From an uncultured cyanobacterium (GTDB lineage Bacteria; Cyanobacteriota; Cyanobacteriia; Phormidesmidales; Phormidesmidaceae): 64,000 bases of DNA. Below are positions 36,001 through 51,000 of this stretch, piece by piece. The position numbers were made by a program. Where the stretch lies: NCBI GenBank assembly GCA_963793265.1, contig CAWBZI010000007.1, positions 160,001 to 224,000 of the forward strand, given 5' to 3'. Positions within the stretch are counted from its first letter, which is position 1; every line of letters begins with the position of its first letter.

Positions 36001-39000
36001 GAAAACTCTATCAAGCTCCTCTTTACTAAAATAGATTCAGTAGAGAAGGGCTAATCCATCTCATACCTATTTTCATACAGACAAGAATACTCGATTTATC
36101 CAGTTGAGCTATTAATGTTTGGGAGAGAAGTGCTAGATTCTACAGACTTGATACGCTAGAACCCTTATGTAAAAAGCAAGATACCAATCGATGTCAACGA
36201 TGCGCTCTAACCAACTGAGCTATACGTCCTTAGTGGAAACTGGGCATAGCATGGCGGTTGCCTCCTATGCAAGTATGGATTTTGTTGAGGCAAAACTGCA
36301 CATGACGAAAGTTTAGTCTACTGGGAGTATTTGATTTTGAGACGTTTGGTGTGGGGAATAGGCGCGATCGCACTACTCTATCTCGGGGCCTGCATAGCGC
36401 TATGGGCCTATCAGCCACGAATGATATTTTTCCCTGATGCTTTGGTGAAGAGTAGGCCAACTGAGGTAGGGCTAGCTTACGAAGACATAGAGCTGCAAGT
36501 TCAGGGCGATACTGTGCATGGATGGTGGATTCCGGCGGTGGGTGAGACGGCCCCGGTTGTGCTGTACCTGCATGGGAATGGCAGCAACGTGGGGGATTTG
36601 GTGGCGCGGGCGCAAAGGTTTCATGAGTGGAATTACAATGTGCTGCTGATCGACTATCGAGGGTATGGGCGTAGCAGCGGAAAGTTTCCGAATGAGCGGC
36701 GGGTGTATGAGGATGCTGAGGCAGCTTGGCAATATCTGACGCAGGAGCGGCAGGTGGCGGCAGAGCGGATTGTGATTTTTGGTCAGTCTTTGGGGGGAGC
36801 GATCGCAGTGCAGCTAGCGAGCCAAAAAAACGATGCAGCGGGGCTGATAGTCGAGTCGTCTTTTACGTCTATGAGAGAGATGGTGGGGCACTCATATTCG
36901 CGGCTACCGTCGCTGGTGCCAGTGAATTTGATTTTGACGCAGCGGTTTGATTCTTTGGCGAAGGTGCGATCGCTCAAAATGCCCTTACTGCTGCTGCATG
37001 GCACCGAAGATCAGATGGTACCGGCCAGGATGAGCCAGGCTTTGTACGATGCGGCAGGCGGTGAGAAGTCATTGGTGTGGCTTGAAGGCGGTGGGCACAA
37101 CGATTTGCCTTATAGAGAAGGGAGTGAGTATGCAGATAGTATTAGAGCCTTCGTCGAGCGGTATGCTAAGTAGCAATTAATCGATTGCGCCTACTACGAT
37201 GAGCCGTATTGCAGCCAACTCACACTCTCAGCGTCGCCTCTGGAGCTGGATTGTTGTCATCCTTTTATGTTTGGGCGTTTTGTTTCGAGTGTCCTATCTC
37301 GATCGGCCTGTGTACTGGGTGGATGAGGTGGCAACGTCTATGCGGGTGTCGGGGTATACGCACGCGGATGTGCGGGAGCAGGTGGCGACAGGGTTGCCGG
37401 TTACGGTGGCGGATTTGCAGACGTTTCAGATGATTAGGGGCGATCGCCCCCGTTCAGATTTGTCGCGAGTGCTTACCCAAAGCCCAGAACATGCGCCGCT
37501 TTATTTTGTATTAGCCAGGTTTTGGGCAGAGGCATTGGGTGGTTCTGTTGTGGTGATGCGAAGCTTGCCCGTGTTGTTTGGGTTGTTGGCCTTCCCGGCA
37601 ATGTATGGACTAGGGAGAGCGCTGTTTCAAAAGCATCAAGGGCGGCATTTGATTGGGCTAAGTGCGATGGGGCTGCTAGCGATTTCTCCCTTTTTTGTAG
37701 CCTACTCGCAGGAGGCGCGGCCCTATAGCCTTTGGATACTGCTGCTGTTGCTGGTGAGTCAGTTTTTAGCGCGATCGCTCCAATCAAACCGCTGGCAGTG
37801 GTGGCTCAGCTACGCCCTTTCTCTTATTCTATGTTTGTACACCTCCCTGCTAACGGTGCTTGTTGTCTTTGGTCAGGGGCTAGCGGTGATAGCTTTTCAT
37901 CCCAAACGACGGCTCTCCTATACGATTGTGACAGGGGCTTCGCTGGTCGCGCTTCTACCCTGGGTAGTTGTGGTGTTTACCCACTGGACGAAGCTACAGA
38001 GCAATACGGTTTGGATGCAGGTGCCAACAACAATATGGGCGATTTTAGGCACATGGTTTTATAGCCTAGCAGTGCTGTTCTTTGATGTGCCAGTGGCGGT
38101 AAATCCAGTGCTATTCGTGATGGAAGTGGTTGCAGCAACGCTAACGCTAGCGGTAATTGGCTATGCTTTTTACCACCTCATCCGCAGCGCACCTCGTTCT
38201 GTAATAGGATTCTTTTTGGCAGGGACGTTTTCAATCCCGCTGATGCTGTTGTTAATTGACATTGTTCGTGACGGACAGGCCGCTGCTACGCCCAGATACC
38301 TGATGCCGACTCATATAGGTGCTTTGGTGGCAACGGCTTATCTAATAGGCGATCGCCTTTTTGCAGCGAATAATTTGACAGGAAATCAGACAGCTAAGCT
38401 GTCAACTAAGCAGTGGAATAGTGCGATCGCCTTACTCCTATCCGTCAGCCTATTGTCTTGCATTATCGGTCTGAATAAAGACTCTCCCTATCTAAAAAGT
38501 CGCAACCTGAGCAACGCAGGAATTATAGCCGAGCTAAACAACGTCCAATTTGTTCAGCTTGTCACAACGCCCTACTACATTCAAGATGTGATCTCTTTAA
38601 GCTATCGGTTAAATCCTGACATCAGCATCTATTTCTTACCCGAGAAAAGCGACCCCGGCGAGCTACTGACAAAAGTTGTGAGCCTAAATAAGCCCACCTT
38701 CTTGTTTACACCTTCAGAAGAGCTGAAAGCAGTTGTAAAAGAGAATCAGTTCGGTAATTTGCGATCCGTCTTCGAGCCTGCACCTCTCATTTCAGGAGAC
38801 TACGGTCTGACGCTTTGGAGGCTTGAATCATGAAGATTGCAATTATTAGCTCTGGGTTTTTGCCGGTTGTTGATGGGGTGACGGTAGCCCTTTACCAGCG
38901 GCTGCGAGTGCTGAGCGAATTGAAACACGAGGTATTAGTGCTATGTCCAGACTATGCATCGATTGAGTCAGTCTATCCTAGTTGGCGCGATTATCAGGGC

Positions 39001-48000: not shown

Positions 48001-51000
48001 GGTTTACCCTTCAGTGCCTTACAACGCCGCTCGCTTACGATTCTTTTTAAGCTGCTTACACACCGAAGAACAGATTACAAAAACCGTACAGACTATTGCC
48101 GACGAGCTAATGATTATCAACGCAGCGGCCTTATAGTGGCTGTCAAATCTTCTCGCACCTACCGAATCGTCGCGCTACCGGGTGAAGGCATTGGCCCTGA
48201 AGTGGTAGAAGCTTGTCTGAAAATTCTTCAAGAACTGTCAGGAACAGAGGGCTTTACGGTTGTAATAGATTACGGTTGGATTGGCGAACCGGCCCGGCAA
48301 CAGTTTGGCTCTGCCTTGCCCAAGGAGACTTTGCAGCTATGCGAAGGTGCGGACGGTATTTTGTTCGGTGCGGTTACTAAAGGAGGACTGTTAGAGCTAC
48401 GGCGACACTTTGACTTATTTACCAACCTGCGTCCGGTTCGGCCTTCATTGAGCTTGATCCATACCTCCGCTATTAAAGCCGAGCGGTTGCAAAACGTCGA
48501 TTTACTCTTTGTTCGAGAGCTAGTCAGCGGAATCTATTTTGGCGAGTCGGGGCGATCGCACAGCGAAGGATTTCACACCATGCGCTACGCCGACAGTGAA
48601 ATTCGTCGAGTTGCAAAAGTCGCTCTGGGATATGCACAGTCTCGGCGGCAACGCCTTTGTGTGGCGCACAAGGAGAACGCACTGCCTCATTTGCACTGGA
48701 CACGAATCGTAAAAGAAGAGGCGCAAGCTTTTGAAACTGTGAAGGTAGAGCCGATGCTGGTAGACAATTTGGCAATGCAGCTTGTAACGCGGCCTGCTGA
48801 CTTTGATGTTGTGCTGGCGGGGAATTTATTTGGTGATATTTTGAGTGATTTAGGAGGTGCGATCGCTGGCTCAATCGGTTTACTCGGCTCAGCTAGCCTT
48901 AACGCCGACGGGTTTGGTATGTACGAAGCTGTGCATGGTACGGCCCCTGACATTGCCGGTAAAGGCATTGCTAATCCGCTCGGAACCTTAGCAGGTGTCG
49001 TCTTGATGCTAGAGCAATGGGGTGAAATTCGAGCGGCTAAGAGGCTCGTGTCTATCCAAGAAAAGCTGCTTGCTCAGGGCTACCGAACGGCTGACTTATT
49101 TCAACCGAACGCACCGCATCATCAGCAAATGGTCACCACTGCCGAACTTGTTAATCTATTTATCACATTAATTCGGGAGCCTGACCGGTAGAATGCGATC
49201 ACTTTATTCAATATGTCCTATTACTTTTTTTCCTACAAATGAAAGCTCAAGAAAACACTATGATCTGCTTTAATCGATTGCTGGCAGGCAAACGCTTGAG
49301 CTATACAAAAGCGGTTTTGTTAAGTGCAATTTGTGTAAATGTGATTGCGCCCGGCGAGGCACTAGCCGAACCTTTACCCAGTGTCACCTCTACAATCGAT
49401 GCCTCAGACGGAATCGCAACAGTACAAGACGATTGGAAGAGTGAGCCTGCCGCTGAAGCTCTACAGCCCAGCAGTCAGCTTACCAGTGAGTTTATCCCTG
49501 AAGAGATTTCTCTTAGCGCTGAGAATCCTTCTGTTCTACTCACTCAGCTCGAAGATGAAACAGATGAGACGCCAAAGTTTGGCACCGCTGGTAAGCAACG
49601 ACTGTATGTACAAGGCGCAGTTGCAAGTGATTTTGATGATGAAACGCTCGGCTTGGTCGGTGTAGGCGTATCTCATTTCTTCTATGACGCGCACAGCGTT
49701 AATTTAGAGCTGAACGCGCTGGCTTTTGATCAGCCAGGAGACAATGCGCTCGGGTTAAATCTGAATCTTTTGGTGCGATCGCACTGGATTCGCGGCGAAA
49801 ACTGGTCTGTTTTCATCGATGGCGGCGCAGGCATCATCGGCACCACCAGCGACGTACCCAGCGAAGGATCAAGCTTCAACTTCACCCCCCAAGTCGGCGG
49901 CGGCGCAACCTTCCAAATCAACGATAAACAGCGGCTTATGACCGGCCTCCGCTACTACCACATCTCCAACGCCGACACCTTTGAGAGCAACCCAGGCTTG
50001 GACGCCTTGATGGGCTATGTGGGCCTCAACTTTCCGCTATAAATCTTTTCAAGGATCCGTTGGCATCTATGAGCTAGATACTCTGTTTGCAACTGTCAAT
50101 TACATTTTCAAGCAATGTAAGCAACAGTTGAAGGCATTGGTAAGCGCCTAACTTGCGGCTTTGGTTGCAGCGCCAATGTACATTACGCAATCGCCCTCAA
50201 AGCTCACCTGAAACTCACCGCTCTCCCAATACCGCCGTAAACTCTTCCACTTTCCTAACACACCTTTCCCGAACAGATCAAAGCCATTCACGGCAACAGT
50301 CTGCATTTTCTGTTCTTCAATCATCCCCACGAGTTCTGCGGGCTTAATGAACTTATCCCAATCGTGAACGCCGCAGGGAATTTGTCTGAGCGTATTTTCT
50401 AGTAGCCAAATCATCACCAGCTTTGACTGCCAGGTGCGGTTGATCGTATCGAAGCAAAACCAGCCGCTCGGCCCTAGCACTCGGCCAATCTCAGCAATAG
50501 TCTGCTGTGGATCTTCGACATGTTCTAAAACATCTACGCACACGACTACATCAAATGCTGCATCGTGAAAAGGTAGCTGCTCAGCATAACCCTGCTGATA
50601 GCTAATTTTAAGATTCACTTCATCCGCGTGACGACTAGCGGCTGCAATACAGGCGGCTGATTGATCGATTCCCGTTACCTGTGCGCCGCGTTCTGCTAAA
50701 AACTCACAGGTAAAGCCGCCCCCACAGCCAATGTCTAAGACGCTAAGTCCTCGCCAGTCGGTAATATACTGGTCAAAAAACTGGAACCGTAGCGGATTAA
50801 GCCGACTGAGCGGGGCGACGGTGGCGCTTTTGTTCCACCATTGAGCGGCCCACTGGTCATAATAGGAGAGGTTGTTACGCTGCATGAATTAGGGTGATTG
50901 ATACAAAAGAGGCTAACGTTTCTATCATTATTCCGACGCTAAATGAGGGCCGCTGTTTGGCCAGGACGCTTCGTCATCTAACCATATTGGAGCCCCCTGC

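What a model noticed while it worked through the whole genome (the two positions that open the first line are those of the whole stretch)
37199..50042. Hidden PKS-based sphingolipid pathway in a cyanobacterium: reducing PKS fused to an SPT-type oxoamine synthase plus a eu [...]
g04998 is a fully reducing PKS module (KS-AT-DH-ER-KR-ACP) fused to a PLP alpha-oxoamine synthase of the serine-palmitoyltransferase type. It belongs with a 3-ketodihydrosphingosine-reductase homologue (g03039, C4:384592), stand-alone KS g03037, FAAL-PKS g02061/62 (C2:282520) and GT4/GT-C glycosyltransferases; the genes are scattered over four loci here but form one cluster in relatives. Predicted product: a glycosylated sphingoid lipid, in a phylum with no known sphingolipid pathway.
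Evidence so far: Domain order and intact KS, AT, ACP and PLP-lysine motifs. The oxoamine domain matches SPT structures (3A2B E 1e-65, human SPT2 E 7e-64; call 50); g03039 is 41% identical to human KDSR and its best PDB hit is Tsc10. In 173 family genomes the oxoamine domain is found in 19, the reductase in 19, both in the same 18. Handle G042 carries GT-C, GT4, PKS-AOS, KS, cyclase and reductase within about 32 kb; G012 links g02059/61/62 to the reductase. Of 25 non-proteobacterial loci mapped, 22 have the fused form and 3 have the reductase in the same locus; the 4 proteobacterial loci have a free oxoamine synthase. A separate BioF (g03228) exists in the genome.
(Added by a program. Inside this text positions count along the whole contig: contig position 160,001 is position 1 of the stretch shown here. 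"Call 12" and the like, gene names such as g00115 and contig names such as C1 are that model's own, and its searches are not shown. The text may have been shortened before it was handed on; [...] marks where a part breaks off. The agent that wrote the report below was given it as the finding of a first reader that could run no searches.)

Follow-up and report, generated by a model that had tools for sequence, protein, structure and literature searches.

The report
Cyanobacterial polyketide-type sphingolipid gene set
A cyanobacterium carries a scattered but co-inherited set of genes that looks built to make a sugar-bearing sphingolipid, probably with an unusual aromatic-ended chain, which would supply a genetic route to sphingolipids in a group where none has been described; no lipid has been measured.

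Summary
Confirmed: window 40193-48136 is an intact KS-AT-DH-ER-KR-ACP-oxoamine synthase (AOS). The AOS is about 58% identical (by-eye count) to PfSgaB, a proven serine-selective SPT of Pseudomonas, against 35-36% to BioF and E. coli Spt. It travels with a Tsc10/KDSR-like reductase (18 of 18 family genomes; 12 of 16 in a phylum sample) and one GT4 (14 of 281 genomes, all among the 16 reductase genomes). The FAAL-PKS is accessory. No canonical ceramide synthase was found; an ACP-less FAAL clade tied to these loci is a candidate N-acylating enzyme. Best reading: a glycosylated, serine-derived sphingoid lipid, probably with an aryl-ended chain. Simpler FAAL-ACP-AOS-reductase versions occur across cyanobacteria. 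New variant of the SgaABC kind; all chemistry is inferred.

The parts
36331..37173 (+). alpha/beta hydrolase with hydrophobic N-terminus; recurs in several relatives' clusters; role unknown
   Evidence: Pfam Hydrolase_4; beside GT-C in G123, G115, G189, G186
37199..38833 (+). GT-C (PMT_2/GT39-like) membrane glycosyltransferase
   Evidence: near the AOS in 7 of 41 loci
38830..40065 (+). GT4 glycosyltransferase, the orthologue that tracks the reductase; candidate first sugar transfer
   Evidence: 14 of 281 phylum genomes, all among the 16 reductase genomes; start overlaps GT-C stop
40193..48136 (+). reducing type I PKS fused to an SgaB-type oxoamine synthase, 2647 aa, no N-terminal docking domain
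40220..41488 (+). KS domain, Cys-His-His intact; cyanobacterial clade, 47% to the Pseudomonas SgaA-like KS
41792..42745 (+). AT domain, malonyl-type motifs
42902..46162 (+). DH, ER and KR domains (full reducing loop)
46478..46678 (+). ACP domain
46940..48133 (+). PLP alpha-oxoamine synthase domain, PfSgaB-like
   Evidence: (215 of 369 identical by eye)
48136..49191 (+). extra isopropylmalate-dehydrogenase homologue (HphB-like), third step of a 2-oxo-acid elongation triad
   Evidence: 36% to housekeeping LeuB; directly after the AOS in 16 of 41 loci
49239..50042 (+). PagL-family outer-membrane beta-barrel with His-x-Ser-Asn motif; role unknown
   Evidence: Pfam PagL 55.8 bits, cut-off 23; 9 of 41 loci

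Best explanation
A biosynthetic set for a glycosylated sphingoid lipid of the cell envelope, split over five loci in this genome and clustered in relatives. (1) An HphA/HphCD/HphB-like triad (C7:129868, C7:138468, window 48136) lengthens an aromatic 2-oxo acid by one carbon [family shown, substrate inferred]. (2) A McyG-type adenylation domain loads it on a reducing PKS module (C7:121419-129736) [type shown, substrate inferred]. (3) A stand-alone AT-less KS with a docking domain (C4:381959) takes that chain and passes it to the dock-less PKS-AOS, which extends it, perhaps iteratively [inferred]. (4) The AOS releases it by condensation with L-serine [strong homology, untested]; the Tsc10-like reductase (C4:384592) gives the amino-diol [homology and co-occurrence]. 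(5) An ACP-less FAAL (C2:282454) N-acylates the base [hypothesis, about 0.35]. (6) GT4 adds the first sugar, GT-C enzymes add more outside the inner membrane; a secreted START protein and a PagL-like barrel handle the lipid [inferred]. Probability that the product is some glycosylated serine-derived sphingoid: about 0.7; this exact routing: about 0.45.
For: AOS 58% to PfSgaB by eye, whose serine selectivity is shown in PMC12134224 section 8; the substrate-loop stretch is near-identical and has Ser at the ThAOS V79 position. Reductase: 18 of 18 family AOS genomes; phylum sample 16 AOS, 16 reductase, 12 shared, and 3 of the 4 reductase-only genomes have a divergent FAAL-ACP-AOS directly beside it. 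GT4 nested in reductase genomes, 14 of 14; the other two have GT28-like genes beside the reductase. LeuA-like, LeuD-C-like and loading-domain orthologues each in 17 of the 18 AOS genomes. LeuA-like pocket S/C/A/L/S against HphA A/D/A/M/S, HCS H/R/T/S/H, IPMS L/E/S/N/E; 62-64% homologues are named benzylmalate synthase. Loading domain: McyG E 1e-125 against FAAL 1e-42 to 1e-45; pocket VAVWGGGSG in 10 of 10 triad genomes read, IG[SA]W-type in 5 of 5 genomes without the triad. KS N-terminus matches CurL. Stand-alone FAALs of these loci form one clade (95/97 with 27 rows; SH-aLRT 94 with 44 rows), none beside an ACP, and all 16 aligned lack an Arg kept in 22 of 22 ACP-linked FAALs. No YghO/bCerS in this genome. 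Simpler loci carry YghQ-like flippase, LpxO-type hydroxylase, inositol-1-phosphate synthase.
Against: No lipid, enzyme assay or transcript. The AOS reaches no NCBIfam cut-off (BioF 348/426, SPT-CFB 310/640, SPT-beta 291/500); Ser at the V79 position is shared with alanine-using AONS. 4 of 16 phylum AOS genomes lack the reductase. Two of five HphA pocket residues are identical in ours, three differ; the N. punctiforme HphA itself was not aligned. The two pocket types are probably one evolutionary switch, not 15 independent cases. G034 has triad genes and G128 has the FAAL clade without a detected AOS (drafts 91% and 94%). The FAAL-clade orthologue was seen in 14 of 18 family AOS genomes only. 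G189 has a YghO homologue elsewhere (29%). The loading PKS is frameshifted in this assembly. The C-terminal docking helix had no PDB hit.
Confidence: 0.45

Rival explanations
1. Same parts, other wiring (closest to the first reader): the stand-alone FAAL or the FAAL-PKS primes the PKS-AOS with an ordinary fatty acid, as FadD enzymes prime Mas/Pks2, giving an aliphatic sphinganine; the 2-oxo-acid PKS makes a second chain that the stand-alone KS transfers to the amine or a hydroxyl.
For: The PKS-AOS lacks a docking domain and scores high on the Pks2 model (1182 bits, cut-off 2400); FAAL and FAAL-PKS lie inside the G123 cluster; the KS has an intact triad but no AT or ACP.
Against: The same FAAL clade occurs where the AOS already has its own fused or adjacent loader FAAL (G289, G279, G401, Acaryochloris), so priming is not its likely role; the FAAL-PKS is absent from G189 and G313; the loading PKS sits directly upstream of the PKS-AOS in G357 and three named loci.
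Confidence: 0.25
2. The AOS uses another amino acid (Ala, Gly, or homophenylalanine/homotyrosine from the triad), giving a deoxysphingoid or aryl-headed amino alcohol, possibly a secreted metabolite.
For: Best PDB score is the promiscuous ThAOS; Hph enzymes normally supply homo-amino acids; the HphB-like gene overlaps the PKS-AOS stop.
Against: 58% identity and near-identical pocket loops with serine-selective PfSgaB; the AOS pocket loop is the same with or without the triad whereas the loading pocket changes with it; a conserved GT4 fits a C1 hydroxyl from serine.
Confidence: 0.15
3. The lipid is an anchor or carrier for a surface polysaccharide, as in the proteobacterial rkp/wcb-type capsule loci, not a free glycolipid.
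For: The Pseudomonas and Sinorhizobium homologues sit among capsule genes; several GT-C genes and, in simpler loci, a flippase.
Against: No capsule (Kps-type, Kdo) genes were recognised in the cyanobacterial loci mapped (many flanking ORFs were left unannotated); compatible with the best explanation up to step 4.
Confidence: 0.1
4. Biotin synthesis, or a decaying relic in this genome.
For: BioF is the top NCBIfam AOS model; five loci; a frameshift in the loading PKS.
Against: A separate BioF exists; catalytic motifs are intact; contigs of two other runs from two studies carry a one-base indel at that site that fits an open frame (depths 4.9 and 3.5); scattered but complete sets recur in relatives.
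Confidence: 0.05

Closest known systems
PfSgaABC of Pseudomonas fluorescens MYb115 (PMC12134224)
   Same: Reducing type I PKS, serine-type AOS (58% by eye) and a KDSR-like SDR; product there is C24-C28 sphinganine.
   Different: AOS fused to the PKS; PKS domains only 29-47% to an SgaA-like protein and of cyanobacterial type; extra loading PKS, stand-alone KS, Hph-like triad, ACP-less FAAL, GT4/GT-C in place of a phosphoglycerol head group; no cyanobacteria in that paper's survey.
Sinorhizobium rkpA/rkpG/rkpH-type capsule lipid locus (names recalled; locus L050)
   Same: PKS, AOS (49%) and SDR (39%) in a row.
   Different: Free AOS, capsule export and Kdo genes; no triad or second PKS.
AasR-AcpR-Spt with Epi/CerR and YghO/bCerS of Caulobacter and E. 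coli B (PMC9386255)
   Same: FAAL-like loader, carrier and SPT logic, mirrored by the simpler cyanobacterial loci; shared YghQ-like flippase.
   Different: Spt only 35% identical; no YghO found here; reductase is KDSR-type, not epimerase-type.
HphA/HphCD/HphB of Nostoc punctiforme (PMC12961565; bioRxiv 2026.06.15.732371)
   Same: Extra synthase/isomerase/dehydrogenase triad with a small-residue pocket and matching local motifs.
   Different: Linked to a PKS loading domain instead of a peptide synthetase; three of five pocket residues differ.
McyG loading A-PCP (PDB 4R0M)
   Same: Same adenylation class, Val in place of the amino-binding Asp, hybrid-type KS downstream.
   Different: Three pocket residues are Gly here (VAVWGGGSG against VGVWVAASG); fully reducing module, no methyltransferase.
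TamD, PigH/RedN, RedL, SxtA (carrier- or PKS-fused AOS; TamD seen in PMC4698589, others recalled)
   Same: AOS fused to a carrier as chain-release step.
   Different: Those give pyrroles or saxitoxin precursors; not compared by sequence here; no KDSR/GT partners known to me.

Membership tests
SgaAB-type PKS/AOS sphingoid pathway | Fully reducing type I PKS with ACP | tested here: met
SgaAB-type PKS/AOS sphingoid pathway | AOS of the SgaB clade | tested here: met
   58% by eye; 56% to Pseudomonas plasmid homologue; groups apart from BioF (FastTree)
SgaAB-type PKS/AOS sphingoid pathway | KDSR-like reductase linked | tested here: met
   unlinked in this genome
SgaAB-type PKS/AOS sphingoid pathway | PKS orthologous to SgaA, two-gene layout | tested here: not met
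   fused; 29-47% per domain; separate KS clade
SgaAB-type PKS/AOS sphingoid pathway | Serine condensation and sphinganine product | not testable with these tools
   needs assay and LC-MS
Canonical bacterial Spt-bCerS-CerR pathway | Spt family membership | tested here: not met
   below all NCBIfam SPT cut-offs; 35% to E. coli Spt
Canonical bacterial Spt-bCerS-CerR pathway | bCerS (YghO) present | tested here: not met
   not found with the E. coli query in G000; one query only
BioF (AONS) | TIGR00858 cut-off; sole AOS of the genome | tested here: not met
   348 of 426 bits; second AOS at C4:589788
HphABCD homologation triad | All three extra enzymes beside housekeeping Leu genes | tested here: met
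HphABCD homologation triad | HphA pocket residues / aromatic substrate | tested here: inconclusive
   2 of 5 identical, none matching HCS or IPMS
McyG-type loading adenylation domain | Closest solved structure; no amino-binding Asp | tested here: met
Canonical FAAL (loads a holo-ACP) | Cognate ACP adjacent or fused; conserved basic loop | tested here: inconclusive
   no dedicated ACP beside any clade member mapped; invariant Arg and A8 Asp lost, prolines kept; in-trans loading not excluded

The most novel reading that the evidence does not exclude
Cyanobacteria make glycosphingolipids by their own route: an SgaB-type SPT, a KDSR, and an ACP-less FAAL acting as a new kind of ceramide synthase; in this lineage the base is built on a homologated aromatic 2-oxo acid by a two-PKS line with a relay KS, giving an aryl-ended glycosphingolipid for the outer membrane.
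Probability: 0.22. Interest if true: 0.9.

Novelty: new variant of a known kind. Interest (0 to 1): 0.72.

Why it matters
A 2022 study states that ceramides were reported from two cyanobacteria but no genetic basis or enzyme was known (PMC8895605). This gene set gives concrete candidates for each step, is present in about 6% of a phylum sample (16 of 281), and occurs in named cultured strains (Acaryochloris marina MBIC11017, Planktothrix agardhii NIVA-CYA126/8 plasmid p3, Aphanothece hegewaldii CCALA 016, Hydrococcus rivularis NIES-593, cf. Phormidesmis LEGE 11477), so the question becomes testable by lipidomics and three or four enzyme assays. It also predicts new chemistry (aryl-ended sphingoid; amide formation by a FAAL) and extends PKS-derived sphingolipids beyond proteobacteria.

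Tried and rejected
Literature: ten searches found no description of this cluster or product; the library lacks most subscription papers, so this is limited. Calteau 2014 and Pancrace 2017 catalogue orphan PKS clusters by strain without functional terms; the cluster may be counted there unnamed. Expression: no RNA holder listed. Promoter and terminator scans were at chance level. A guessed NCBIfam accession for ceramide synthase was an unrelated family. No plasmid copy of HphA to align; the HphA sequence figure is an image, so only primer-encoded motifs were compared. C-terminal docking helix: no PDB hit. Moorea and Scytonema, the two reported ceramide producers, did not appear among the named top-120 hits or the 41 loci; their genomes were not searched directly. 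No structure or complex prediction was run. Rejected: eukaryotic origin of the reductase as necessary (39% to a rhizobial SDR); FAAL-PKS as core primer; triad serving a peptide synthetase (only one ORF with a condensation motif by a crude pattern, and the triad genes sit in PKS operons); the 'cyclase' as an aromatase (it has a signal-peptide-like start; judged by eye).
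Full report
Observation. The window is G000:C7:160001-224000. Six co-oriented genes run from 36331 to 50042: an alpha/beta hydrolase, a GT-C, a GT4, a 2647-aa PKS, an isopropylmalate-dehydrogenase homologue and a PagL-family barrel. 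The PKS reads KS-AT-DH-ER-KR-ACP-oxoamine synthase with intact catalytic motifs. GT-C/GT4 and PKS/dehydrogenase overlap at stop and start. The AOS reaches no NCBIfam cut-off and is 36% identical to the genome's own BioF and 35% to E. coli BL21 Spt.

What the AOS is. The supplement of PMC12134224 prints PfSgaB (I read abstract, sections 7 and 8, passages of 9, supplement 11 part 1 of 2 and supplement 17). An ungapped by-eye count gives 215 of 369 identical positions (58%, not computed). A Pseudomonas plasmid homologue that looks very like PfSgaB is 56% identical by BLAST and lies after an SgaA-like PKS among capsule genes; the Sinorhizobium counterpart is 49%. PfSgaB is shown there to be almost exclusively serine-selective. 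In a FastTree of 33 selected rows the cyanobacterial domains form one clade (99) inside a group with these proteobacterial enzymes, apart from BioF (characterised SPTs were not in the tree). The PKS part is not SgaA-like (29-47% per domain; separate KS clade), so the fusion is a cyanobacterial construction.

Co-occurrence. Family, 173 genomes: AOS 21 at E<=1e-100, of which 18 at >=60% (three rows at 45-55% set aside); reductase 19, including all 18. Phylum sample, 281 genomes: AOS 16, reductase 16, shared 12; three of the four reductase-only genomes have a divergent (35%) FAAL-ACP-AOS gene next to the reductase; four AOS genomes lack it. The GT4 orthologue is in 14 of 281, all among the 16 reductase genomes; the other two have GT28-like genes beside the reductase. 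Kin are not independent, but the pattern spans several families. The reductase's best PDB hit is Tsc10; it is 39% to the Sinorhizobium cluster SDR and 26% to the Pseudomonas one.

The dehydrogenase follows the AOS in 16 of 41 loci. Its partners, a LeuA-like synthase (C7:129868) and a fused LeuD-C isomerase (C7:138468), flank a further PKS (C7:121419-129736), and housekeeping Leu genes exist separately. Synthase (20 of 173), isomerase (19 of 173) and the PKS's loading domain (19 rows at >=62% among 27 genomes hit) are each found in 17 of the 18 AOS genomes; the exception, G026, has the simpler layout. G123:C16 holds every gene in about 53 kb, G189 most of them in about 35 kb. The synthase is HphA-like: homologues at 62-64% are named benzylmalate synthase, local motifs match those encoded by the HphA primers, and the five pocket residues are S/C/A/L/S against A/D/A/M/S in HphA, H/R/T/S/H in homocitrate synthase and L/E/S/N/E in IPMS (PMC12961565, part 1 of 6, passages, supplement). 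The loading domain is McyG-type, not a FAAL; that McyG loads aryl acids is recalled, a search for it found nothing. Its pocket is VAVWGGGSG in 9 of 9 triad genomes aligned and IGSWLA[AG]SG in G186, G357 and the Planktothrix plasmid. A further five genomes were then checked: the one with the synthase had the first code, the others the second type (G357 repeated, two rows parsed only in part). This is likely one evolutionary switch, but it ties the triad to the loading domain, not to the AOS, whose pocket loop does not change. The loading PKS ends in a docking-like helix (by eye; no PDB hit), the stand-alone KS begins with a CurL-like docking segment, the PKS-AOS has none. A 547-1000-aa KS-first frame was found in 5 of 5 more distant genomes tested. 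In this assembly the loading PKS is frameshifted; relatives have one open frame of about 2800-3000 aa (several drafts are broken too), and contigs of two runs from two studies show a one-base indel at the site, at low depth, so an assembly error or strain lesion is likely.

The FAALs. The FAAL-PKS at C2:284337 was seen only in close relatives; G189 and G313 have a single, stand-alone FAAL hit. The stand-alone FAAL at C2:282454 belongs to a clade (9 of 27 rows, 95/97; 17 of 44 rows, SH-aLRT 94) found beside GT4, reductase or GT-C genes, including simple loci where the AOS already has its own loader (G289, G279, G401, Acaryochloris). Nine background FAALs from other genomes fall outside it and all have an ACP. 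Sampling was biased towards cluster neighbours. All 16 aligned members lack an Arg kept in 22 of 22 others, most lack the A8 Asp, all have a Trp seen in 2 of 22. PMC8460268 (passages) places the ACP-arm entrance at proline loops; that this is the same loop is my inference. PMC12820801 (passages) says all characterised FAALs load a holo-ACP, which weighs against a new role. YghO/bCerS was not found in G000, G289, G279 or the Acaryochloris genome, and was found in G189. Hence the hypothesis that this FAAL forms the amide; the product could equally be unacylated, as in Pseudomonas.

Wider family. Of 41 loci, 31 have the PKS-fused form (three split by frameshifts), 5 a free AOS after FAAL and ACP with the reductase two genes on (Acaryochloris), 1 a FAAL-dehydrogenase fusion, 4 are cut by contig ends. 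FAAL-ACP-AOS and ACP-AOS fusions are listed from Nostoc, Fischerella, Calothrix, Chroococcidiopsis and planctomycetes. Simple loci carry LpxO-type hydroxylases, desaturases, inositol-1-phosphate synthase and a flippase 27-29% identical to the one in the E. coli sphingolipid locus (PMC9386255 passages).

Novelty. PMC8895605 (abstract, introduction, term search) found no sphingolipids and only a BioF-type AOS in N. punctiforme and states that no genetic basis was known. The SgaAB survey lists no cyanobacterial genus, and none of six terms occurs in its 20 supplements. Ten searches found no description (listed under Tried and rejected); bioRxiv supplements were not visible and subscription papers are mostly missing. 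Other papers seen as passages only: PMC11906848, PMC6562525, PMC4247773, PMC5259702, PMC11334938, PMC4698589; bioRxiv 2026.06.15.732371 part 1 of 3. Earlier notes of this scan reached similar readings on other genomes; they are unchecked and not counted as support.

Verdict. It works like SgaABC but is not a plain member. Probability of a glycosylated serine-derived sphingoid about 0.7, of the aryl-primed routing about 0.45, of the FAAL as ceramide synthase about 0.35. New variant of a known kind; interest 0.72.

Noticed in passing
window 50148-53596: Genes above cut-off for the arsenosugar-associated families TIGR04283 and TIGR04282, with DUF547, a rhodanese-like protein and a UbiG-type methyltransferase, directly after the cluster; not seen beside the AOS in relatives.
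   Followed up: no
window 22000-36000: Lower-GC stretch (39-46%) with large co-oriented ORFs (23136-31162); the last looks, from recall, like a pPIWI-RE-type RNase H protein; also a DUF3987-like fragment and a TerB-domain protein.
   Followed up: no
window about 46740-46880: Low-complexity Ser/Thr/Ala/Glu/Lys repeat linker between ACP and AOS.
   Followed up: no
G000:C7:110752-119550: Run of photosystem II and allophycocyanin paralogues that looks, from recall, like a far-red photoacclimation cluster, next to the loading PKS.
   Followed up: no
L005 (G000:C4:80303-87752) and L004 (G000:C6:684747-696436): Two further FAAL/PKS clusters, one with a P450-like gene, one with SDRs; their FAALs fall outside the clade discussed.
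   Followed up: partly
L110 (G289) 8833-17444: Five-gene minimal locus FAAL-ACP-AOS, reductase, ACP-less FAAL, GT4, flippase with a divergent AOS (35% to ours, 39% to E. coli Spt); best test case for the N-acylation idea; same layout indicated in G329 and G347.
   Followed up: partly
L089 (G026) and L090 (G049): Inositol-1-phosphate synthase beside FAAL/ACP/AOS, with desaturases and a sulfotransferase in G049: candidate inositol sphingolipids.
   Followed up: partly
L047 4735-7174: Three tandem LpxO-type hydroxylases between two FAALs in Acaryochloris marina.
   Followed up: partly
L048 8100-37013: Plasmid-borne copy of the cluster in Planktothrix agardhii, next to an integrase, with the stand-alone KS split and no reductase or triad in the 41 kb fetched.
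   Followed up: partly
L113 (G213) 3630-14128: SgaB-type AOS among Hgl/PUFA-like PKS pieces, without the reductase: a different use of the same enzyme clade.
   Followed up: no
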